Assembly: GCA_000965745.1 (NCBI GenBank) | Contig: CP009479.1 | Span: 1,120,001 to 1,184,000, forward strand | Origin: an uncultured archaeon | Lineage (GTDB): Archaea > Thermoplasmatota > Thermoplasmata > Thermoplasmatales > Thermoplasmataceae | DNA: 64,000 nucleotides | Direction: 5' to 3' | Shown here: positions 6,320-17,552 of the stretch, piece by piece | Layout: each line of letters begins with the position of its first letter | How positions within the stretch are numbered: position 1 is the stretch's first letter | Made by a program: the position numbers and the translations under genes | Notes under the pieces: model-generated | Told to the model about the DNA's origin: nothing | Databases searched by the model: none | What the model saw: the letters and a program-made list of their open reading frames with translations, nothing else

Positions 6320-6423
6320 AACTTATCCTCCCATATCGATTGCATGAACGAGTCTGAGGTGATTTGGGCAAAGTCTCTGTATACTTGTAATTAAGGAACT
6401 GTAATAAACTAATAAATTATTGC

Positions 6424-7424
6424 TAGTGCGTTGCACAATTCAATAGGCATGTGTCATCTCTCTCATGATGTTGTAGTACTGCACCTTCAGGGCGATCTCC
6501 TGAACTATGTAATCAGACCTGACAGCCTTGATCACCTCACCCATTGTTCTCTTGAGACCTGAGAAATATATCTCTACATTCCACCGTTTCCCATACTGTA
6601 CCGATTCCTTCCACCTCTTCTCAGATGTCCTTCTGATCTGTCTGACAACCTTAGCCCTTGCCGGTGATCCCCTGGATTGTGTGGAGGCGTTCTTCCTTGG
6701 CGGTATTATTGTGCCATGCCCAAAGTCATTGAATATCTTCTTTGAATCATATCCCTTGTCTCCGTATATCCTCAGTATTCTGTCCCTGACAGATTCCAGT
6801 ATCTTTCTGCCCTCCTTCGCATCATGGACATGCTCATCGGTGATGGAGAAGGAGAGCACCGAGACATCATGTATTGAGATGACCGCATGGAGCTTGTTCC
6901 ATCCTCTTCTGCGGCGATTCCATTTAGTACCCAGATAATCGCCCCTGATAGTGATCTTGAAACCGGTGGAATCAATGGCACAGTCCACCGGTTTCCCATC
7001 AGTATGGGGAAGAGTTGGCACGATCTTCCTGATCCTCCTGAATATGTTGGTATAGCACACTGTCCTGATTCCCGAGATCCTGGAGAATACCCTGGCAATT
7101 CCTTCAAGAGACCTGAAGGGAACGCTGTACAGTGCTCTCAGCTTCGCAAGGAATGTTATGAACGCATTTGGTGTTTTGAAGGGATGTCCTCTCTTTCCTC
7201 TGTTGTTATCCTGCAGCAGGTTCTTCCAGTTCATGAGGAATGAAGGGTCCATGAGGTCTTCAACCCTGTTCACCAAGGATCGGTTGTACCTGTCATGCCT
7301 TCGGTTAGAACCAACCCAATATCTTCTTGTGCTTCTATTGCCTATTGCAGTGATTTGTTGTGGTGTCATAACAACAAATCGTTCCCCTGTATTTCATTAT
7401 ACAGGGGAATTATGCAACACACTA
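6424..7424 (-). mobile_element. IS5-family (IS903-group-like) insertion sequence, 1001 bp
   Basis: 18-bp TIRs 6424-6441 / 7407-7424 (2 mismatches); 9-bp target duplication AATTATTGC at 6415-6423 and 7425-7433. Confidence 0.92.
6440..7369 (-). CDS. IS5-family DDE transposase
   Basis: YNRSLVNR, AIDSTG, KLH, GDKGYDS, Y..RWNVE.YFS motifs. Confidence 0.92.
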   Translation of the reverse strand: MTPQQITAIGNRSTRRYWVGSNRRHDRYNRSLVNRVEDLMDPSFLMNWKNLLQDNNRGKRGHPFKTPNAFITFLAKLRALYSVPFRSLEGIARVFSRISGIRTVCYTNIFRRIRKIVPTLPHTDGKPVDCAIDSTGFKITIRGDYLGTKWNRRRRGWNKLHAVISIHDVSVLSFSITDEHVHDAKEGRKILESVRDRILRIYGDKGYDSKKIFNDFGHGTIIPPRKNASTQSRGSPARAKVVRQIRRTSEKRWKESVQYGKRWNVEIYFSGLKRTMGEVIKAVRSDYIVQEIALKVQYYNIMREMTHAY

Positions 7425-8699: not shown

Positions 8700-9403
8700 T
8701 TAGAGAAACTACAAGGTTAAGTGGTAATATCGGCGCTTCTGGAAGTGTTACTGTTGTCATTACTTCGACTGGTAAAGTCCTGACGCATAACAACACCCTT
8801 GACGATGGCTCGGGGAACATGTTTCCAGCAGGTTACACGACGTTAGGTGGTGGTGCTAACGTAGGAACTTCAGCAGGAACATTAAACGCACACCATGAGA
8901 GTCATTTCGATAATGGTTCATATTCAGACCCCGATTCTGGCATAACAGGAGACGTAAAAGCTGGGCAGAACGGTATAGCTATCAATGGCGGACTGAAAGT
9001 AAATAGCGGTAACACTATTCTGAATGGCGGTAACGGCATAACACAGTATCGTAATATTGGCTCTTCGGGATGGGGAATGGCACAGGTTGTGGCACAAACT
9101 AGTGGGTCAGGAAGCGTGAGCGCAACATTTCAGATAATTAATTATTCCGCACCCACAGGTCTGTATTTAGTAATGTTTCAGGGTAAAGTAGATACTACAT
9201 GGGGCGTTATTGTGACTACTTCTAGCGATGTATCCGGTGGCAGTTATTCGATTGACAACTTTAGCGGCTCTGGAAGTGGCACACGACATTAACTTGTTAA
9301 TACTGTGTCGGCCGGTTTAGGTGGCTCTACCATAACAGTGAAGTTTAACAATAGCGGGACTGCGAGTGCTTGGTGGAGTGCAGCAATAGTGAGAGTGTAT
9401 TGA
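8700..9403 (+). pseudogene. Gly/Ser/Thr-rich fibre/surface-protein fragment (5' truncated, internal stop)
   Basis: Frame of ORF 8819-9292 is open upstream without a start codon and continues in frame after TAA 9290-9292 to TGA 9403. Confidence 0.55.
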
Positions 9404-10124: not shown

Positions 10125-10725
10125 GTTATCATCCTCTTATTATTATTCAGGACTTAAATGCGAAATGAATAGTGAATCAATTGTATTGAAGGCAATGATT
10201 GGAAATATTAAAATCCTTGTACCGTTATTGAAATACCATTCAACAATTTCCAAAGCCTTTTATATAGCATTTCAGCGAAAGATGTTCAGGGGCATTCCTA
10301 TTGTTATTCCATCATGCCCGTGTGTTTTTAACTCTGCTTCAGGAAATGACAGTAGAAAGGTACCCTCAAGAGATGAATGTGGAACCTCTATTTTTCAGAA
10401 TCTTTGACTCGTCGAAGGTTTATTCCTGCCATATTTTACCTTTGCATTCCATTACGATATAATTCTCAAATCCCAATTTTGACGTGGATGAACAGGTCTT
10501 TGAACGGGCATATGAACTTGGAGAAACTGCAAGGTCTCCTTGCTGACATCCTCTCTTTTTTTACTAGTTATACACCACGATTCTACACCAGATTTAATGT
10601 TCAAAATAACCAGTATTTGACAACAAATTCTCACAGTTTTAACCAATAGAACACATACCTGACACATATCTGAAAAATACCTGAGGAAATATATGTTTAT
10701 ATAGATGATTTGATTCTATATATTA

Positions 10726-11364
10726 ATGCCAAAAAGCAAGCATTATCCACCTTCCTACATAAGGTATCAGATAGAACATCCTCCTGTTACAGTTCATCTC
10801 AGCAAGAAGGTCAAGGAGAACCTGGATGCCCTCAAGGGAAACAGGTCGTATGCAGAAGTTATCAATGAAATTCTCGACAGAACATTCAACCTTGAACACG
10901 AAATAAAGAGACTCCCAGTCAATGAAGCGGTTATATCATATCACAGAGGTTTTAGAGAAGCTGAATCAAGATATGCACAGTGGGGCGTCTGCAAGAAGTG
11001 TGGAAGAGAATGGACTCTCTGGAAAGATGGGAAATGTGATCTCTGTCACAAAGAAGGATCAAGCCCAGATTATTCATACTTCAGGGACAGCGAATCCACT
11101 AAGGTGGTCAATGAAGAGGACTTTGAGAAAGCAAAAGCGAAGCTGCCAAGACTTGAGAGACTGTCATACGAAAATGGTAAAAAGAAAGGGCATGAAGATG
11201 GCTGGGCTGACGGCTACGATGAAGCCATTGAAGATTACAGGATAACATACCCCTGCAAGGTTTGCGGAAAGGCTATTGTGATGAAGACTGGAGATAATGG
11301 CCATAAGGCGATGATCGAATACATGAAAGAACACGGCTGGTCCCATTCAAGTTGCCTTAAGTAA
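10726..11364 (+). CDS. RHH/CopG-like DNA-binding protein with two Cys-rich Zn-ribbon modules
   Basis: VTVHLSKKVKENLDALK..RSYAEVINEIL; CKKC..CDLC and CKVC...H..C. Confidence 0.65.
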   Translation: MPKSKHYPPSYIRYQIEHPPVTVHLSKKVKENLDALKGNRSYAEVINEILDRTFNLEHEIKRLPVNEAVISYHRGFREAESRYAQWGVCKKCGREWTLWKDGKCDLCHKEGSSPDYSYFRDSESTKVVNEEDFEKAKAKLPRLERLSYENGKKKGHEDGWADGYDEAIEDYRITYPCKVCGKAIVMKTGDNGHKAMIEYMKEHGWSHSSCLK

Positions 11365-11407
11365 TGCAGTAAACGGAAACATTACCAACCTTCAAGAGGG
11401 AAGTCTT

Positions 11408-13471
11408 TCACTCACTTGCGATGCTTTCTATTTTGCCCTGATCGATGCATTCTTTGACAAAGGGACTTTCTGGATACCATAGAACGATTTCTCCTTCCTT
11501 GTAGACATGACCCATATGAGCGAACGTTTTCATAACCCTGTACGGTCTGTTGGAAGAGTTTTTTTGTGAGTCGGCATCTTTGGGTAACGGATCAACGAGT
11601 TCTGTCGTTACCGAACTTTTTCCCGCGTTCTCTAAGGTAGATTTCACATCGGTAACGTCGCTGTACCTATTTCTCTCATACTCTGGACTGGAACCATCAT
11701 GCTGCAACATGAGCTTCCCATGGTTACCATTTCTCTCCCGCTCAAAACTGGACAGATCTTTTTGCGGTAACGTCTCAATCTTATGATCCGTTACCACATC
11801 GTTCGTGACAATTATTGCAATGTCCCGCCATGCCCGTAGAGGTGCAGAGTTCCCAACCTTCTTTTGTACTGTCAGGTTGGCGTACCCTTTGGAACTTAAG
11901 GCCCTACCAAGTGCCTTGGAATCAACGTTTTTGGCTGGAAATCCTTTCTTGGTTGCCCAATTAGCCGCTTCGGTCAAAACATCCTGCTTTATTGTGGTCA
12001 GATACTCGGCTCCATCTTGGCTTATTGTCAGGTATCTCGACTTCTGTTCCCTGCTCATTCCGATCTCTAGGAACTTTATTTTGGCATCCTCAAGGTCTGT
12101 AAGTATAAGCCCCTCTGAATCTTTCACCTTCAAATAAGAGGCGGCGGGGTTTGATCTCTCTTCCCATTTGGCTTCTGCATCCATCACATTTAGGTGGCCT
12201 GTGAATTTCATTCTCTTCACGAGAGGTGCATAGAAGTTATCTATCACATACGAGAAGATTGCATCAAGCTCACTCCCTTCCTTTAGGCTTCTTGCAATGG
12301 AATCAATTTCACTCGGGGAAAGCACGGACTCAAGCATGTTGGGAAAGTCAATTATGGTTATCACTCTCCTGTAGAAAGCCCTCAGTTCATTCTCTTTTTC
12401 AGGAAGCTCGTTTGTGTCTATGATCATCTTTGCGTGGCTCTTTATTTTGAATGGGTGACCGTTCTTGCGATCCACTGTAATTTCCGTGCCATCAGTCAAC
12501 CGCTTGAACCATTCTGATGTGATGATCTCAGTTGTGCTTTCACTAATCAGGTTAGCCCATGAACCTGCCAGCTCTGCCCTCTTGAATTTGTCCGTCTCGA
12601 GTTCACCCAGACTGATGGACGAAGTCTTATCAAGGAGAAGGCCAATTATCAAATGTATTATTGACTTTCCTTCACCTCCTTGGCCATATAACACAACTGC
12701 ACCTTGTATGTTGTAGTTCTTCATCAAAGTCCAGGCAATTGTCTCGAACAACTGCGTAGTCTTCAACTCTTTTTCTGGATCGCCTGAAAATACTTTGTCT
12801 AAGAATTCAAAAAACACCTTTGGCTTTGATCCTTTCACGTAATTCCTCGGAATGAATTCTGTATAGAAGTAGTCTGGACTGTGCCTCGTTGTTTCTCCGC
12901 TGATGGGATGTAAGAGACCTTCACGTATTGGTATCGTGTGTTCGGGTAGAGGCATCAGCTCCTCCATTGGCACACCAATTTCCTCTGGACTGCTGATTCT
13001 TGTGGAGTTCTTGATAGATTCGACCGCCGATCGTATCTGAGAGGGCGTTATCCTGCCAGGCTCCTCCAGGTTTGTCTTAATCAGTCCCTCGGCATCTCTG
13101 AGCCAGTGGGTACCAACGAATTGGCTTACGGTCCCGTCCGAACCCACATATTCAGTCTTGACATTTGGATAAACACTCATGTAATCCTCGGCACATAAGT
13201 GTGGTACAAATTTAGGACCTTTCTTTGTTTCAACGAACCAGGAATCAGGATTGAGGTCATCAGACCTCTGTTCTGGACCAGAAATAGCTTCTATTTTCTC
13301 TCTAATTATTTTCTTCAGGTCATTCCTTTCGAGCTTATGCCATAGTCTGTTAATACCAATATTTCTAAGATACTCTGAGTCTGGCGAAGTATCAAGAAGG
13401 TCAGACAGTGCGCAAAAGAGAGCGTAACCTTCTAGCTCGTCGAAGCTTACGTTATGGTCCTCGCCAGCCAT
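11408..13471 (-). CDS. D5/P4-family SF3 replicative helicase (phage/plasmid primase C-terminal family)
   Basis: D5_N-like IPIREGLL...HSPDYFYT; Walker A YGQGGEGKS; LAGSWANLISE; motif C TNELP; FYRR. Confidence 0.88.
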   Translation of the reverse strand: MAGEDHNVSFDELEGYALFCALSDLLDTSPDSEYLRNIGINRLWHKLERNDLKKIIREKIEAISGPEQRSDDLNPDSWFVETKKGPKFVPHLCAEDYMSVYPNVKTEYVGSDGTVSQFVGTHWLRDAEGLIKTNLEEPGRITPSQIRSAVESIKNSTRISSPEEIGVPMEELMPLPEHTIPIREGLLHPISGETTRHSPDYFYTEFIPRNYVKGSKPKVFFEFLDKVFSGDPEKELKTTQLFETIAWTLMKNYNIQGAVVLYGQGGEGKSIIHLIIGLLLDKTSSISLGELETDKFKRAELAGSWANLISESTTEIITSEWFKRLTDGTEITVDRKNGHPFKIKSHAKMIIDTNELPEKENELRAFYRRVITIIDFPNMLESVLSPSEIDSIARSLKEGSELDAIFSYVIDNFYAPLVKRMKFTGHLNVMDAEAKWEERSNPAASYLKVKDSEGLILTDLEDAKIKFLEIGMSREQKSRYLTISQDGAEYLTTIKQDVLTEAANWATKKGFPAKNVDSKALGRALSSKGYANLTVQKKVGNSAPLRAWRDIAIIVTNDVVTDHKIETLPQKDLSSFERERNGNHGKLMLQHDGSSPEYERNRYSDVTDVKSTLENAGKSSVTTELVDPLPKDADSQKNSSNRPYRVMKTFAHMGHVYKEGEIVLWYPESPFVKECIDQGKIESIASE
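11583..11795. repeat. Six GGTAAC(G/C) iterons in dyad symmetry; putative replication origin
   Basis: Motifs at 11583+, 11606-, 11651+, 11722-, 11766+, 11789-; both outer pairs have 16-bp spacers. Confidence 0.7.
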
Positions 13472-13477
13472 GCTAAA

Positions 13478-13657
13478 TCACTTGTTTCGATCGGTGGCTC
13501 CTATTTCCGATGTGAATGCTTCTTTAGCAGGACTACCTTTGTTTTGACTATCTGCCGCTTTCTTGGTATTGGTCGTTTCCTCATATATTTTAGGATCCGA
13601 CAAGAGGTCTTCACCGATTATCTCCTTCCATAGCTCGAAAACCTTTGCCCAGCTCAT
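13478..13657 (-). CDS. Small hypothetical protein (59 aa)
   Basis: MSWAKVFELWKEIIGEDLLSDP...; ATGA-coupled to upstream ORF, ends 6 bp before helicase start. Confidence 0.6.
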   Translation of the reverse strand: MSWAKVFELWKEIIGEDLLSDPKIYEETTNTKKAADSQNKGSPAKEAFTSEIGATDRNK

Positions 13658-13800
13658 TTTAGAGCCTCCACAATGAGCTTTTCTGCAGAATCAGAAATCC
13701 TCACATACTGGGGAAAATCGTTAGTTCTCACCCAATCTATGGGAAGTTCTATCAAAGCATATTCTCTCCTCCTTGTCACCTTACGAATCACATCAATCAC
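13654..13800 (-). CDS. Small AbrB-like regulator (about 48 aa, GTG start)
   Basis: IRKVTRRREYALIELPIDWVR...VRISDSAEKLIVEA pattern of swapped-hairpin proteins. Confidence 0.55.
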   Translation of the reverse strand: MIDVIRKVTRRREYALIELPIDWVRTNDFPQYVRISDSAEKLIVEALK

Positions 13801-13821
13801 AATAATATATAGAAACTAAAC

Positions 13822-13849
13822 ATTTAAATCATAATATTGAGTTACTCAA
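13822..13849. promoter_or_regulatory. Palindromic TATA (ATTTAAAT) between divergent genes plus operator-like palindrome TTGAGT-T-ACTCAA
   Basis: TATA centre about 26-28 bp from both start codons; 13-bp palindrome 13837-13849. Confidence 0.55.
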
Positions 13850-13852
13850 CTT

Positions 13853-14938
13853 ATGGAAGGAAAATTAAGTATGAACCAACTTAAGACTTTGAGCTCCCTT
13901 TCCTCACCAGAGAAAAACTGGCATGGCGCCCCAGAAAAAGGATTCTCAGAGATTAAGGAGTGGTTCTCTAAGAATAATCTGAGTATTTCAGATAATGGAC
14001 TCTCTAAAATACTGATCAAATTGAGAGAAGGCGGCTATGTAAAGAAATTTGTAAATTCTGAAGGAAAGATGAAATACAGAATCACCACTTTGGGTGCAAA
14101 CCACCTCCAGAAATACTACTGGCCTTTGATCGACACCCTATCCATTATGGATAGGGAAAAATCATTATATTTTATGTTCTCTCATTTTGGTTCGGACTAT
14201 CATTATATAGAAGAACTTGGCCAGCGTCCTGGAACCTCATACGTATCCTATTACACGGTACCTTTACCCAACGAATTTTATTACAATATGTTATCCACCA
14301 TGGCTGTTAAATTAGTGTCGGGCGAACTGGACAATATTATACCTAATGGAAAATGGGATAACAGCGATGAGAGACATGATATCTACTTAACGACTCATTA
14401 CAATCTTGCAGAACTAAATGAGGTTGCAGAAACCTTTTGGCAATTATGGTCTCATGCCCATTCGGACATTGAATCTTTAACTGACATTGTGGCACATTTG
14501 ATCAGCAACAAGAGTAAGTGGATTCAAAGGGATCTCTTTTCCTCTATGGCAACAATGCTAGTATCTACTTCTGTATGGCTGATGAACAAAAGTGAGGATG
14601 CAGAGATGCAAAATAGAGTGGAGGAGCTTGATAAGAAATTAGGTGAGATCTTCCTTAACAGAATGGACTTGACATCAGACTTGGACAAAGAGTTGATCGA
14701 AATATTTATTGAAGATATTGAAGCTGAAAAAGACCCGCTTGAAGATGAGAGAGTTATGAGAAACAAGTTGATATTGGAACATGAATATGAAGGTTTCAAC
14801 AGCTATATGATACAGGATTATGTTAGAGGAGCCGCGATTAAGAAAGGAGAATTAGACTTTATTGTGAAGGCAGAAAACTATCTGAAGGGGACACAAGGGA
14901 TTCTCATAAGGACTCTGATGTATCAACAAGGCAAATAG
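13853..14938 (+). CDS. Winged-HTH regulator with large unknown C-terminal domain
   Basis: GFSEIK...ISDNGLSKILIKLREGGYVKK...KYRITTLG wHTH signature. Confidence 0.75.
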   Translation: MEGKLSMNQLKTLSSLSSPEKNWHGAPEKGFSEIKEWFSKNNLSISDNGLSKILIKLREGGYVKKFVNSEGKMKYRITTLGANHLQKYYWPLIDTLSIMDREKSLYFMFSHFGSDYHYIEELGQRPGTSYVSYYTVPLPNEFYYNMLSTMAVKLVSGELDNIIPNGKWDNSDERHDIYLTTHYNLAELNEVAETFWQLWSHAHSDIESLTDIVAHLISNKSKWIQRDLFSSMATMLVSTSVWLMNKSEDAEMQNRVEELDKKLGEIFLNRMDLTSDLDKELIEIFIEDIEAEKDPLEDERVMRNKLILEHEYEGFNSYMIQDYVRGAAIKKGELDFIVKAENYLKGTQGILIRTLMYQQGK

Positions 14939-14954
14939 AAAATTCATAGGTGTT

Positions 14955-16124
14955 CTAATTGTCATAATTAGAAAGTAGATCATGCTGGATTGTATTGCTT
15001 TCCTTCTTACTTTTTTTTCTGGTGTTATGCTTATGCTTCGAGAGATGCATTAAAAGATTGGCTTTCTTCTTATCGACTGGATCTGGCATTTCGTCAGGCT
15101 TAATCGAGTTTAGATTATCAATAAGCTTTTTTATATCATTTCTAACCTTATAGGTCCCTATCCCTCCTTGTTGCCTTGTGACTAGATTTGAGTCCTCCAT
15201 TATTCCAAATAATTCTTCAGCGTATTCTTGGGAAACCGTGACTTCGTCATTCTCAAAAGCCCCGATAATGGCGGAAATCGCGGTCGATTTCGTAAATTGT
15301 GAGCTCGGGCTAAGAAAGAAGTCTGATGTCTTCATCAGAAGTATTATGTTCACATAACGGTCGACTACTTCAGGCTTGGAAAGTCTGAAAGTTGACTCTA
15401 TGTGCTGGCTTCCGTTAATAAGCCATCTTTTAAGTCTTTCACTATCGTTAACGCAAAAATTGTTTGAAGACTCTGAGCAATTTGTCCATTTGGAAATACC
15501 TGACAAATTACCGTAGGCATATTTTATTCTATAGTTAGAAATCCCTTGAGCTATATTTATCCCCCACAAAATAGTCTTACACTTGGGTAGACTGAAGTTC
15601 TCATCGCTTACTCTTGCGTCAATACCATTAGATTGGTCTAAAGTCAGTTTAAGAACACTGGTTAAATCATCAAAAAGATCGCTGTATGAGAACACAACGA
15701 ACTCAGATGAGCCTTTGACGTATTGCTTTCCATATAACCAATGTAGGCGATTATGGCTAAATAGTTGCTCTCTTTTCTTCTGGTCTTCCATTACCAGTTC
15801 AAAATCCGTTTTCTTAGAGCATATGTCTTCCCAGATCTTCTTAACTCTTCCATTCGACTTCACTTCAATGAAAATAGGCTTAACAGATCCATTTTCGAGT
15901 TCTTGTTTGTCACATAGCATGACGTCTATGGAGCCCTTAATCCTTTTATCAGGATGTAGAATCTCTGTGGCAACAAAAGCATGCCCGTGTCCTTCGTCTG
16001 ACGTGAATGCATCAACAAGATACCCAACGAGGTAGGAATGAAGGTAAGGTCTTCTAAGTTGATCATATAATATCTCTAATACATTATAGTCGTACTTAGA
16101 TCTTCTTTGCTTGCTCTTGCCTAT
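14955..16124 (-). CDS. PD-(D/E)xK nuclease-domain protein (probable non-AUG start; ORF track starts at 15920)
   Basis: Frame open upstream of 15920; ATE...GSIDVML...FIEVKS motif straddles the called ATG. Confidence 0.7.
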   Translation of the reverse strand: MGKSKQRRSKYDYNVLEILYDQLRRPYLHSYLVGYLVDAFTSDEGHGHAFVATEILHPDKRIKGSIDVMLCDKQELENGSVKPIFIEVKSNGRVKKIWEDICSKKTDFELVMEDQKKREQLFSHNRLHWLYGKQYVKGSSEFVVFSYSDLFDDLTSVLKLTLDQSNGIDARVSDENFSLPKCKTILWGINIAQGISNYRIKYAYGNLSGISKWTNCSESSNNFCVNDSERLKRWLINGSQHIESTFRLSKPEVVDRYVNIILLMKTSDFFLSPSSQFTKSTAISAIIGAFENDEVTVSQEYAEELFGIMEDSNLVTRQQGGIGTYKVRNDIKKLIDNLNSIKPDEMPDPVDKKKANLLMHLSKHKHNTRKKSKKESNTIQHDLLSNYDN

Positions 16125-17194
16125 CCTATCACCGTCGCTTCCTTGATGTTTTCCCCTTCATCAATCGCTGAATATATTTGCACAGCACGATAACTGTCGC
16201 CTTTCAACGTGGTAACAGTCGCATAGTTGTTCGTAATCGTCAAGGAGTAGTGACCAAAGTTTATCCAACCTTCTGCCCCTTCTCCCTGGTAAACTATATA
16301 GGCTGTAATCATCCAATCTTCCCGCTTGTCCATTATAACTACTATGGGCCTCTCCATCCTGATACCCTGTGGAGGTGGGGCAAGAGAAGCAACAATCTTG
16401 TCAAAGTAGTTCTGAGTGTCGATTTCTTTGTCAAATTCTATCAAGACCTTCTTCTTAGAAGATAAATTACTTTCTGTTGGACTTGTAAAAATCGCCTTAC
16501 TAGCTTGGGTAAAAATATGCTTGCTGGTTTCACTAATCTCGTCTAGCAACTCATTAAAGAATTCAATATGTTTTGTAGGATTCTCCACTAGTAATATTCC
16601 ATGGTGATGAATCTCAAATTCATCTGTCTTGTTTGTCTTCAAGGAAAAAGTCGCCCTATATGGCTTCAACCCCATCTTCTTGTCTTGGTCAAGTCTTTGA
16701 AGTATGTAATCTAAATCTGAATGGTCTTTGAAGTACGATTGCAACTGTTTCTTTCCAGCACGGTACTCCCTCAGAATGTAATTATCATATTCCGTCTCAA
16801 GAATGCTGAACATCTTGCTCTTTGTTACGAATACTGGGTAAATTTCATAAAACCTAAGCTTGTACGCAAGCAGTTCAATATCACGTCTTGATTTTACAGT
16901 CCCAAAAGCTAATGAGAGACCCGTTTTGTTCCTTAGTAGAACTATATCTGTATGGTCCCTCAATGGCCCATCGATAAAAGACACTCGAACCGCTCGTTCT
17001 GAGACTTTTTCCTTCTTAAATTGACCACTGGTTGATTGTCTTTTTTTCGCCTCTATTACGGGGGAAAAAAAGAAGGATCGAAACTTCCCCCTATCTTCAC
17101 TGAGGAATTCTATATCACTCAACTTAAGAATTGACATCATAGCATCATCTTTACCTGGAATACCAGACCATGAAAAGTCTTTTGCACTATCCAA
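16121..17194 (-). CDS. Hypothetical protein, partner of downstream nuclease
   Basis: 357-aa ORF whose stop overlaps inferred nuclease start; no motif recognised. Confidence 0.75.
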   Translation of the reverse strand: MDSAKDFSWSGIPGKDDAMMSILKLSDIEFLSEDRGKFRSFFFSPVIEAKKRQSTSGQFKKEKVSERAVRVSFIDGPLRDHTDIVLLRNKTGLSLAFGTVKSRRDIELLAYKLRFYEIYPVFVTKSKMFSILETEYDNYILREYRAGKKQLQSYFKDHSDLDYILQRLDQDKKMGLKPYRATFSLKTNKTDEFEIHHHGILLVENPTKHIEFFNELLDEISETSKHIFTQASKAIFTSPTESNLSSKKKVLIEFDKEIDTQNYFDKIVASLAPPPQGIRMERPIVVIMDKREDWMITAYIVYQGEGAEGWINFGHYSLTITNNYATVTTLKGDSYRAVQIYSAIDEGENIKEATVIG

Positions 17195-17477
17195 TTAGAA
17201 ACTCCCCTATTTTGAAAAGTACCAAAATTCTCCCTAGAGGCTGAAGCTATTTTTTCCATCAATGAGTGAACTATCATATTCACAATACGTTAATTGTAAT
17301 ATAAATATATTATCTACATCAAATTAATTTTCAATGAAATGCAAGCTGATTATTAGAGATCCCATCTAGGTAATAACTTGAAATAGTGGATCATAAAGTA
17401 TAAAATATGGTGAGAATATTATATCATACAACAAAAATTATTTGTAGAAGCCGTAGAGCACTGGGTTTTTATTTAAG

Positions 17478-17552
17478 TGCTCCGGTCGGGATTTGGACCC
17501 GAGTCGAGGGATTGAGAGTCCCTAATGCTTGACCGTGCTACACCACCGGAGC
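17478..17552 (-). tRNA. tRNA-Glu(CTC)
   Basis: GCTCCGG/CCGGAGC acceptor stem, AGGGA-CT-CTC-AA-TCCCT anticodon arm; T-loop reads TCCAAAT. Confidence 0.9.

What the first reader, a model, noticed from the sequence alone, without database searches (positions are those of the whole stretch)
11583..11795. Dyad-symmetric six-iteron array hidden inside the 3' end of the SF3 helicase gene
Seen: GGTAACG at 11583, 11651 and 11766; CGTTACC at 11606 and 11789; GGTTACC at 11722. Both outer inverted pairs have exactly 16-bp spacers, and the whole set is mirror-symmetric about ~11689 (gaps of 38 and 37 bp). The encoded protein stretch is low-information (VT../LP repeats). Known: P4 and PICI replicons use short inverted iterons bound by their helicase/initiator. 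Inference: this is the element's origin of replication.
Basis: partly seen in the sequence, partly recalled or inferred. Interest (0 to 1): 0.72.

Follow-up and report, generated by a model that had tools for sequence, protein, structure and literature searches.

The report
Replication origin written inside helicase gene
A mirror-symmetric set of six short DNA sites inside the tail end of a mobile element's helicase gene in a Thermoplasmatales archaeon is almost certainly that helicase's own docking array (its replication origin), because relatives keep the same layout at the same spot with different site sequences.

Summary
Six GGTAAC(G) sites lie at 11583-11795 in the order + - + - + -, with start-to-start gaps of 24, 44, 72, 43 and 24 bp. 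This is the densest GGTAAC cluster in the 2.23 Mb genome (about 1e-6 genome-wide).

The sites fall inside a 687-aa SF3 helicase gene. They lie just after a confidently modelled winged-helix domain, in codons for a predicted disordered linker. They occur in two codon phases and both orientations, so selection acts on the DNA.

In eleven related or analogous loci, the most repeated short word sits at the same place. The layout is usually the same dyad, but the word differs by clade (GGTAACGG, GGTAGCGG, GGTAGCAC, AGTACCAG, CAGTCCCCGA, CGGAAC, CCTATGGCA).

In close protein pairs, all sites appear to switch A to G together. That switch tracks a Ser/Asn change on the first wing strand of the winged helix.

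The nearest solved structure is SaPI5 PriRep5. Its winged-helix wing reads iterons that lie just downstream of its gene.

Best reading (0.75): a SaPI-type self-loading-helicase origin, here overprinted on coding sequence as with lambda ori in gene O.

Caveats: no AT-rich centre, no primase in this copy, and no binding or replication data. I class it as a new variant of a known kind.

The parts
11408..13471 (-). SF3 (D5/DUF5906-type) helicase gene, 687 aa, with no primase domain
   Evidence: ORF and translation. Pfam DUF5906 at 4e-17 and a weak D5_N hit; PHROG primase/helicase families. Nearest solved structure is SaPI5 PriRep5.
11816..12010 (-). Codons for the winged-helix domain (about residues 488-552), the proposed iteron reader
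   Evidence: AF2 model: helices 495-509 and 518-527, strands 533-537 and 545-549, pLDDT 81-92. The domain aligns across all homologs.
11864..11866 (-). Codon of residue 536 (Gln here) on the first wing strand, in the motif TV-x-KK; candidate specificity residue
   Evidence: In relatives this residue is Ser with GGTAAC-type linkers and Asn with GGTAGC-type linkers, across several sister contrasts. Codon read directly from the sequence.
11471..11800 (-). Codons for the predicted disordered linker (residues 558-667) that carries the array
   Evidence: pLDDT 26-30 over residues 558-667. Length and sequence vary among homologs.
11583..11795 (.). The whole dyad-symmetric six-site array, the proposed origin
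11583..11594 (+). Site 1, GGTAACGGATCA (full consensus); read as S-V-T in the protein
11606..11612 (-). Site 2, CGTTACC; inverted partner of site 1 across a 16-bp spacer; read as P-L-P
11651..11657 (+). Site 3, GGTAACG, left inner site; read as D-V-T in another codon phase
11722..11728 (-). Site 4, GGTTACC (GGTAACC on the minus strand), right inner site and the weakest match; read as G-N-H
11766..11772 (+). Site 5, GGTAACG; read as T-L-P
11784..11795 (-). Site 6, TGATCCGTTACC (full consensus on the minus strand); inverted partner of site 5 across a 16-bp spacer; read as V-V-T-D
11411..11566 (-). Codons for the small C-terminal domain after the linker (about residues 636-687). It is swappable among homologs and shared with a second helicase in this genome.
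   Evidence: 40% identity to the C-terminus of the ORF at G000:1506953. Homologs carry other C-terminal modules.
10709..17504 (.). Probable extent of the roughly 6.8 kb mobile module carrying the helicase, ending in tRNA-Glu (17477-17552, minus strand)
   Evidence: Metagenome contigs break at about 10709 and 17504, and other strains carry different DNA left of 17478. tRNA; GC 38-43% here against 46-50% in the flank.

Best explanation
The array is the cognate iteron set, and therefore the replication origin, of the SF3 self-loading helicase whose gene contains it. Shown: the six sites exist and form a dyad. They sit in the codons of a predicted disordered linker directly after the helicase's winged-helix (WH) domain. 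Homologs keep an array at this place with clade-specific words. Inferred: WH domains of helicase subunits dock on the GGTAACG(G) sites through the beta-hairpin wing. The two mirror halves (an inverted pair with a 16-bp spacer plus one inner site) each nucleate one hexamer. DNA opens between or within the halves, and the two hexamers unwind outward. Priming is done by a PrimPol in relatives, where it is a separate upstream gene or fused. In this primase-less copy it would fall to a host or co-resident primase. Because the origin is in-frame coding DNA, initiator and origin are inherited as one unit and their specificity can change together.
For: 1. Significance. This is the densest GGTAAC cluster of the 2.23 Mb genome, P about 4e-11 locally and about 1e-6 genome-wide. 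The palindromic unit occurs only here.

2. DNA-level selection. Sites occur in two codon phases and both orientations, giving VT, LP, GN and DVT peptides. The relative L006 adds GNG, NVT and QVTG.

3. Conservation. A de novo 6-mer scan puts each homolog's top repeated word 0-171 nt after the WH domain. Examples are L006/L033 GGTAACG x10; L023 GGTAACGG x8 with gaps 12, 24, 43, 70, 44, 24, 12; L007 GGTAGCGG; L009 GGTAGCAC; L024/25 CGGAAC x9; L026-30 AGTACCAG x6 with gaps 33, 45, 90, 45, 33; and L031/32 CAGTCCCCGA x6 with gaps 35, 42, 87, 42, 36. Two further helicases in the same genome also have arrays: L004 CCTATGGCA x5 and L005 CTGACATTA x6.

4. Concerted switch. P0038 and P0041 are 78% identical and differ in the linker by VT>VA three times, VT>AT twice, with RY and LP kept. 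That is exactly what GGTAAC>GGTAGC predicts when read as F R F R F R R. Linker dipeptides split the family into the two types.

5. Reader. Wing-strand residue 536 is Asn in all 11 GGTAGC-type proteins and Ser in 12 of 17 GGTAAC-type proteins. It switches in each sister contrast on a core-only tree that needs at least 5 type changes. The two DNA-verified cases agree: L023 is Ser with GGTAACGG, and L007 is Asn with GGTAGCGG.

6. Homology. The best solved match by sequence (E 1.5e-11) and by fold (TM 0.65-0.75 on the target) is SaPI5 PriRep5. SaPI Reps bind 6-12 penta- or hexanucleotide iterons next to the rep 3' end through a C-terminal WH (PMC9371898). The PriRep5 wing reads the bases, and inverted iterons 15-17 bp apart are melting points (bioRxiv 10.64898/2026.10.17.759575).

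7. The linker is predicted disordered, so it can tolerate DNA-imposed codons.
Against: There is no AT-rich unwinding element. The array centre is 52-53% AT against 55% for the gene, and the two spacers are 56% and 69%. The only AT-rich stretches nearby are at 13771-13870 and 10651-10730. Only 2 of the 6 window sites match the 8-mer consensus GGTAACGG. This copy has no primase and no recognisable integrase. Contig depths give no hint of extra copies. Concerted changes in forward and reverse sites would also preserve hairpin pairing. No binding or replication experiment exists.
Confidence: 0.75

Rival explanations
1. The helicase (or another element protein) binds the array, but the array acts as an operator, copy-control or incompatibility site rather than the start site. 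Binding inside the gene's own 3' part would block transcription, or would handcuff copies together.
For: The array lies inside the transcribed gene. No AT-rich unwinding region sits inside it, whereas the AT-rich promoter region at 13771-13870 could host melting. Iterons double as control sites in many replicons (general knowledge of iteron plasmids).
Against: The dyad with two mirrored halves matches origin architecture in SaPI replicons (PMC9371898). No GGTAAC sites occur in the AT-rich regions. The array keeps its position even where upstream regions differ.
Confidence: 0.12
2. The array is a centromere-like partition site, or the target of a different DNA-binding protein of the element such as an AbrB/RHH-type regulator.
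For: Phage N15 carries a centromere site inside repA (PMC2847241). Small regulators with AbrB/VapB-like N-termini are encoded nearby.
Against: No ParA/ParB-type genes were found in the roughly 6.8 kb module. The site sequence co-varies with a residue of the helicase's own WH wing. Neighbouring genes differ between loci while the array stays attached to the helicase.
Confidence: 0.06
3. The inverted repeats act as nucleic-acid structure, either mRNA hairpins or a DNA cruciform or stem-loop as proposed for the pRN1 origin, rather than as protein-binding words.
For: The single strand folds somewhat better than shuffles: z = -2.2, with 3 of 200 shuffles as good. An A>G change in forward sites with T>C in reverse sites keeps pairing intact. 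pRN1 uses a stem-loop downstream of its primase-helicase gene (PMC4234260).
Against: All 6-10 sites of an element share one word, which a set of independent stems does not require. Relatives have tandem same-orientation sites (L023, L006, L024, L005) that cannot pair with each other. Stems would be only 7-12 bp, with partners up to 200 nt apart.
Confidence: 0.05
4. The array is a chance cluster, or a by-product of a repeated peptide motif.
For: The window-wide GGTAAC count is as expected. The two outer pairs are 61 codons apart in the same phase and give similar VT...LP peptides.
Against: The genome-wide P is about 1e-6. The inner sites use another phase and give other peptides. Arrays recur at the same place in at least 9 clades with different words.
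Confidence: 0.02

Closest known systems
SaPI (PICI) Rep / PriRep self-loading SF3 helicases and their iteron origins (Staphylococcus aureus)
   Same: The helicase core is homologous and gives the best solved-structure match (7OLA). Both have a C-terminal winged helix. Both have 6-12 short (5-7 bp) iterons at the 3' end of rep, split into two oppositely oriented halves with inverted pairs. Spacers are 15-17 bp there and 16 bp here. Iteron words differ between elements (PMC9371898; bioRxiv 10.64898/2026.10.17.759575).
   Different: The host is archaeal. The array lies inside the ORF, in codons of a disordered linker followed by an extra C-terminal domain, rather than in non-coding DNA after the stop. 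There is no AT-rich centre. No helper-phage link, packaging genes or integrase were seen.
Phage lambda ori inside gene O
   Same: Dyad-containing iterons bound by the initiator lie within the initiator's own coding sequence (PMC3349717).
   Different: Lambda O is not a helicase and recruits DnaB. Lambda has four direct 18-bp iterons plus a 38-bp AT-rich tract. The proteins are not homologous.
Phage-plasmid N15 RepA
   Same: Bidirectional replication starts within the gene of a multifunctional primase-helicase type initiator (PMC2847241). That the ori lies in the 3' part of repA and that RepA is P4-alpha-like is my own recollection and was not checked here.
   Different: The host is bacterial and RepA is a far larger protein. 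The site architecture was not compared here because the primary paper was not held.
pRN1 ORF904 (Sulfolobus) and SCCmec Cch2
   Same: Both are primase/SF3 or MCM-like helicases with a C-terminal DNA-binding domain that acts on sequence immediately 3' of its own gene (PMC4234260, PMC7581432).
   Different: pRN1 uses a 100-nt stem-loop. Cch2 uses three direct AAGTG repeats. Both origins are non-coding.

Membership tests
SaPI-type self-loading Rep helicase with iteron origin | SF3 (D5/DUF5906-like) hexameric helicase core | tested here: met
   Pfam DUF5906 at 4e-17. A profile hit to 7OLA at E 1.5e-11. Foldseek top hits are 7OLA/7OM0 with TM 0.65-0.75 on the target.
SaPI-type self-loading Rep helicase with iteron origin | C-terminal winged-helix DNA-binding domain | tested here: met
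   The AF2 model shows helix-helix-hairpin at residues 495-549 with pLDDT 81-92. The match to the PriRep5 WH is by topology only; no residue-level alignment was obtained.
SaPI-type self-loading Rep helicase with iteron origin | Six to twelve 5-7 bp iterons at the 3' end of rep, in two opposed halves with at least 2 inverted on each side | tested here: met
   The window has six sites in the order + - + - + -. Relatives have 5-10 sites.
SaPI-type self-loading Rep helicase with iteron origin | AT-rich region at the centre of the origin | tested here: not met
   The centre is 52-53% AT against 55% for the gene. Among relatives only L024 has a clearly AT-rich centre, 76% against 62%.
SaPI-type self-loading Rep helicase with iteron origin | Origin lies in non-coding DNA just downstream of the rep stop codon | tested here: not met
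   The array is in-frame coding DNA at residues 559-630 of 687. The same holds in L006, L009, L024-29 and L004.
SaPI-type self-loading Rep helicase with iteron origin | Rep binds its own iterons specifically and melts the origin | not testable with these tools
   Only indirect support exists: co-variation of wing residue 536 with the iteron word.
Phage-inducible chromosomal island / satellite | Integrase, att sites, helper-dependent induction and packaging functions | tested here: inconclusive
   The module abuts tRNA-Glu and is strain-variable. No integrase family hit and no att repeat were found. No capsid or packaging genes were seen.
Lambda-type origin inside the initiator gene | Initiator-bound repeats located within the initiator ORF, in a flexible-linker coding part | tested here: met
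   the lambda comparison comes from PMC3349717. That the lambda ori codes a flexible linker of O is my own recollection.
pRN1-type stem-loop origin | Long conserved stem-loop 3' of the replication gene | tested here: inconclusive
   The DNA fold gives z = -2.2, and pairing is limited to the iterons themselves.

The most novel reading that the evidence does not exclude
A whole family of archaeal mobile-element helicases may carry its replication origin overprinted, in frame, on a disordered protein linker. Under this reading the iteron word can be read off the protein sequence (VT/GNG/PLP against VA/GSG/PLP). Origin specificity would be reset by a single wing residue (Ser/Asn) together with one base in every iteron. 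The origin-linker would also act as the joint at which different C-terminal adaptor domains are swapped. If helicase binding to its own coding DNA further gates synthesis of the full-length protein, that would couple initiation to initiator supply.
Probability: 0.3. Interest if true: 0.8.

Novelty: new variant of a known kind. Interest (0 to 1): 0.62.

Why it matters
Origins of archaeal integrated elements and plasmids are largely unmapped. This result gives a concrete 213-bp origin candidate for a widespread Thermoplasmatales element family, and a simple rule for finding the origin in its relatives: look just after the helicase's winged helix.

It extends the SaPI-type self-loading-helicase logic from bacterial satellites to archaea. 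It also supplies natural specificity variants (GGTAAC against GGTAGC, paired with Ser against Asn on the wing). Those variants make protein-DNA recognition by this helicase class directly testable.

Finally, it is a clean example of dual coding, where a DNA-binding array dictates recurring peptides in a disordered linker. That matters for interpreting 'low-complexity' protein segments.

Tried and rejected
- **Homolog DNA:** Their iteron type is inferred from peptides only.
- **Collection scans:** The metagenome, genome and viral scans gave 10, 1 and 3 loci. The viral loci were too distant to use. A class-wide genome search added no close homolog.
- **att sites:** A search with the tRNA-Glu region found no repeat.
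- **Primase:** A search with the L006 primase found none near the helicase.
- **Neighbouring genes:** Pfam and PHROG searches of the neighbours found no integrase or partition gene.
- **Unwinding element:** An AT-rich stretch inside the array was not found.
- **Second cluster:** The second-densest GGTAAC cluster, at genome position 2005144, has no common extended motif and is taken as chance.
- **Sequencing runs:** Only contig-level DNA runs were available and no RNA holder was listed. Depths are per contig and cannot show copy number. The joint 8608>17482 has only 22 nt on its short side and is not relied on.
- **N15 primary paper:** PMC275552 is not held, and two malformed queries failed.
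- **C-terminal domain:** The small domain after the linker matched no Pfam family.
Full report
**What is in the window**

GGTAACG is at 11583, 11651 and 11766; CGTTACC is at 11606 and 11789; GGTTACC is at 11722. Both outer inverted pairs have 16-bp spacers. The inner gaps are 38 and 37 bp, and the whole set is mirror-symmetric about 11689.

Counted as hexamers, the orientation runs + - + - + -, with start-to-start gaps of 24, 44, 72, 43 and 24 bp. The two outermost sites extend to a perfect 12-bp inverted repeat, GGTAACGGATCA / TGATCCGTTACC.

**Is it more than chance?**

GGTAAC is not enriched across the window as a whole: 18 copies found against 17.2 expected. A third of those copies, however, fall within 213 bp.

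In the full 2,226,687-bp genome, 0.055 sites are expected per 213 bp. Six gives P = 3.7e-11, or about 4e-7 to 2e-6 after correcting for the genome scan. No other place in the genome has more than four. The runner-up at 2005144 shows no common extended word.

The unit GGTAACG-N10-22-CGTTACC occurs only twice in the genome, both times here, and its reversed control occurs 0 times.

**Genomic setting**

The array lies in the minus-strand gene 11408..13471, which encodes 687 aa. The protein matches Pfam DUF5906 (4e-17), weakly matches D5_N, and matches PHROG primase/helicase families.

The host is a Thermoplasmatales-type archaeon. A mevalonate-3-kinase gene lies next door, and homologs come from Thermoplasmata MAGs.

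The gene sits in a low-GC stretch that ends at tRNA-Glu, 17477-17552. Metagenome contigs break at about 10709 and 17504. Other strains carry different DNA left of 17478. This points to a strain-variable module of about 6.8 kb.

No integrase, partition or primase gene was recognised in it, and no att repeat was found.

**Selection acts on the DNA, not the peptide**

An AlphaFold2 model built on 28 homologs shows a confident winged helix. It has helices at 495-509 and 518-527 and a hairpin at 533-537/545-549, with pLDDT 81-92. Residues 558-667 follow with pLDDT 26-30.

The array encodes residues 559-630, so it lies wholly in that predicted disordered linker and starts 23 nt after the conserved AW(R/K)DI motif.

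The six sites are read in two codon phases and both orientations. They give V-V-T, T-L-P, G-N-H, D-V-T, S-V-T and P-L-P. A peptide repeat cannot produce one DNA word in several phases.

**Relatives**

A protein search found about 70 homologs at 40-63% identity, nearly all from metagenomes. I obtained DNA for these by whole-genome and collection searches.

An unbiased scan for the most repeated 6-mer in any 320-bp window of each locus returned, in every case, a word located 0-171 nt after the WH domain. The table lists what was found.

| Locus | Word | Sites | Start-to-start gaps (bp) / notes |
|---|---|---|---|
| L006/L033 (59% id) | GGTAACG | 10 | |
| L023 (61%) | GGTAACGG | 8 | 12, 24, 43, 70, 44, 24, 12 |
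| L007 (58%, pseudogene) | GGTAGCGG | 5 | |
| L008 (53%, pseudogene) | CC(G/A)CGAC(A/T)G | 6-7 | |
| L009 (43%) | GGTAGCAC | 6 | |
| L024/25 (42%) | CGGAAC(T/C) | 9 | |
| L026-L030 (39-40%) | AGTACCAG | 6 | + - + - + -; 33, 45, 90, 45, 33 |
| L031/32 | CAGTCCCCGA | 6 | 35, 42, 87, 42, 36 |

Two other helicases in the same genome show the same plan. L004 (26% identity) has CCTATGGCA five times inside its ORF. L005 is a different P-loop helicase with its own WH and linker. It carries CTGACATTA six times and then the same small C-terminal domain as the window protein.

In intact genes the array is in frame. In L023 the gene is frameshifted but the array is intact.

In more distant helicases (L012/13), a weaker repeat of four copies lies just after the stop codon, which is the arrangement known from SaPIs. 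I treat that case as tentative.

So the place and the dyad plan are conserved while the word changes by clade. That is the signature of an initiator-iteron pair.

**A concerted word switch, visible in protein**

Linkers of the homologs carry recurring mini-motifs: VTD, NPPLPP, SGNGS, SVTE, KQVTG and DPLPxPLP.

One subset has VA, GSG, SAT and QVAG instead, while PLP and RY stay. This is what a GGTAAC>GGTAGC change predicts when read in every allowed phase:

- GGT AAC > GGT AGC turns GN into GS.
- G GTA ACx > G GTA GCx turns VT into VA.
- GTT ACC > GCT ACC turns VT into AT.
- CCG TTA CC > CCG CTA CC keeps PLP.
- CGT TAC C > CGC TAC C keeps RY.

Linker dipeptide counts split the family cleanly, and these dipeptides are 5-10 times denser in the linker than in the rest of the protein.

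The clearest pair is P0038 and P0041, which are 78% identical. They differ by VT>VA three times and VT>AT twice, with RY and LP unchanged. The implied site order is F R F R F R R.

L007 shows GGTAGCGG directly at the DNA level.

**Who reads the sites**

P0007 (GGTAAC-type) and P0010 (GGTAGC-type) are 83% identical and share the same C-terminal domain. That domain is therefore not the specificity reader.

Outside the linker, the alignment column that best separates the two types is residue 536, in the motif TV-x-KK on the first strand of the WH wing. It is Asn in 11 of 11 GGTAGC-type proteins. In the 17 GGTAAC-type proteins it is Ser in 12, Asn in 3, Gln in 1 and Thr in 1.

A tree built only on the helicase core (residues 75-488) needs at least five changes of iteron type. 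In each sister contrast the residue flips with the type. The contrasts are P0038/P0041, P0004/P0017+21, P0007/P0010+12, and P0006 or P0029 against P0008/9/15.

The two DNA-verified cases fit: L023 has Ser with GGTAACGG, and L007 has Asn with GGTAGCGG.

There are caveats. Three exceptions exist (P0035, P0036, P0047). The types were defined from peptides. Recombination of a WH-plus-origin module would give the same pattern as repeated point mutation.

**Comparison with what is known**

The nearest solved protein is the SaPI5 primase-helicase PriRep5, both by profile search (7OLA, E 1.5e-11) and by fold (Foldseek ranks 1-7, TM 0.60-0.75 on the target).

SaPI Reps are SF3 self-loading helicases. 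Their C-terminal WH binds 6-12 penta- or hexanucleotide iterons lying immediately downstream of the rep ORF. Half the iterons lie on each side of an AT-rich centre, with at least two inverted on each side (PMC9371898).

A 2026 preprint reports that the PriRep5 wing (strands beta-3 and beta-4) contacts iteron bases in the major groove. It also reports that inverted iterons 15-17 bp apart mark initial melting points (bioRxiv 10.64898/2026.10.17.759575). Both fit the 16-bp spacers here and the wing position of residue 536, though that match is by topology and not by a residue-level alignment.

Other known cases put the origin just 3' of the helicase gene: SCCmec Cch2 (PMC7581432) and pRN1 (PMC4234260). 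Origins inside the initiator gene are known for lambda O (PMC3349717) and N15 repA (PMC2847241).

**What differs here**

- The host is archaeal.
- The array is in-frame coding DNA for a disordered linker.
- The linker is followed by C-terminal modules that differ among close relatives.
- There is no AT-rich centre. The centre is 52-53% AT and the spacers are 56% and 69%, against 55% for the gene.
- The only AT-rich stretches nearby are the promoter region at 13771-13870 and the module edge at 10651-10730.
- The window's copy also looks somewhat worn or minimal. Only two sites match the 8-mer consensus, there are six sites against 8-10 in relatives, and there is no primase. L006 and L023 have a PrimPol gene overlapping the helicase start, and the distant clade has it fused.

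**Rival readings**

- An operator or copy-control role for the same protein-DNA contacts cannot be separated from origin firing by sequence alone.
- A centromere or a different binding protein is less likely, given the co-variation with the helicase's own wing and the changing gene neighbourhoods.
- A pure structure model has modest support. The fold gives z = -2.2 and hairpin-preserving changes are possible. It does not explain why all sites of an element share one word, nor the tandem same-orientation sites in relatives.
- Chance and peptide repeats are excluded.

**Verdict**

I put 0.75 on the array being the helicase's iteron origin.

It is a new variant of a known kind: a SaPI/P4-type self-loading-helicase origin, moved into the coding sequence in an archaeal element family. 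It comes with a natural specificity switch that makes the recognition code testable.

I found no sign in the literature searches that this family or its origin has been described. Those searches cover only the held library.

Noticed in passing
L005 1477-3276 (G000:C1 about 1506929-1508728, minus strand): A second, unrelated P-loop helicase (599 aa) in the same genome has the same plan. It has an NTPase, then a WH-like region, then a low-complexity linker carrying CTGACATTA six times (L005 1683-1840). It ends in a small C-terminal domain 40% identical to residues 585-682 of the window protein. A weak primase-like match lies just upstream, at genome position 1508766-1509050.
   Followed up: partly
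L004 2633-2853 (G000:C1 about 891565-891785): A paralogous D5-like helicase (721 aa, 26% identity) carries CCTATGGCA five times, alternating + - + - + with gaps 58, 75, 58 and 21, inside its own 3' coding part.
   Followed up: partly
window 9005-9036: Two direct GCGGTAAC sites lie 21 bp apart (9008 and 9029) inside the ORF 8819..9292. This is outside the 6.8 kb module suggested by contig breaks. It could be chance, or an auxiliary site like P4 crr.
   Followed up: no
window 6421-7424: The IS (DDE transposase, 6440..7369) has contig depth 200-260, against 40-60 for its surroundings, in two metagenome runs. All four runs have loose ends at 6421 and three of them (X1, X3, X5) also at 7424, so it is a multi-copy element with exact ends at these places.
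   Followed up: partly
window 10709 and 17478-17504: Assembly graphs of several runs branch at these two places. Other strains carry different DNA left of the tRNA-Glu 3' end. One contig joins 8608 to 17482, but the short side is only 22 nt, so that evidence is weak. The right flank has about three times the depth of the module in runs X1 and X3.
   Followed up: partly
homologs P0001-P0050, C-terminal parts: After the origin-linker, close relatives carry at least five unrelated C-terminal modules. They include a small YRV..GxVY domain, a ferredoxin-like GYHV..YHIR domain, and two WH-like domains. P0046 has a faint sub-threshold Gins51_C match (E 0.0046). They may be adaptors to host replication factors.
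   Followed up: no
L007, L008, L023: Three homologous helicase genes are broken by stop codons or frameshifts, yet they keep recognisable arrays of 5-8 sites at the usual place.
   Followed up: partly
window 13771-13870: This is the most AT-rich 60-100 bp near the helicase operon (77-80% AT). It lies between divergent genes and has no GGTAAC sites. Another first-stage note also flagged it as a divergent promoter.
   Followed up: no
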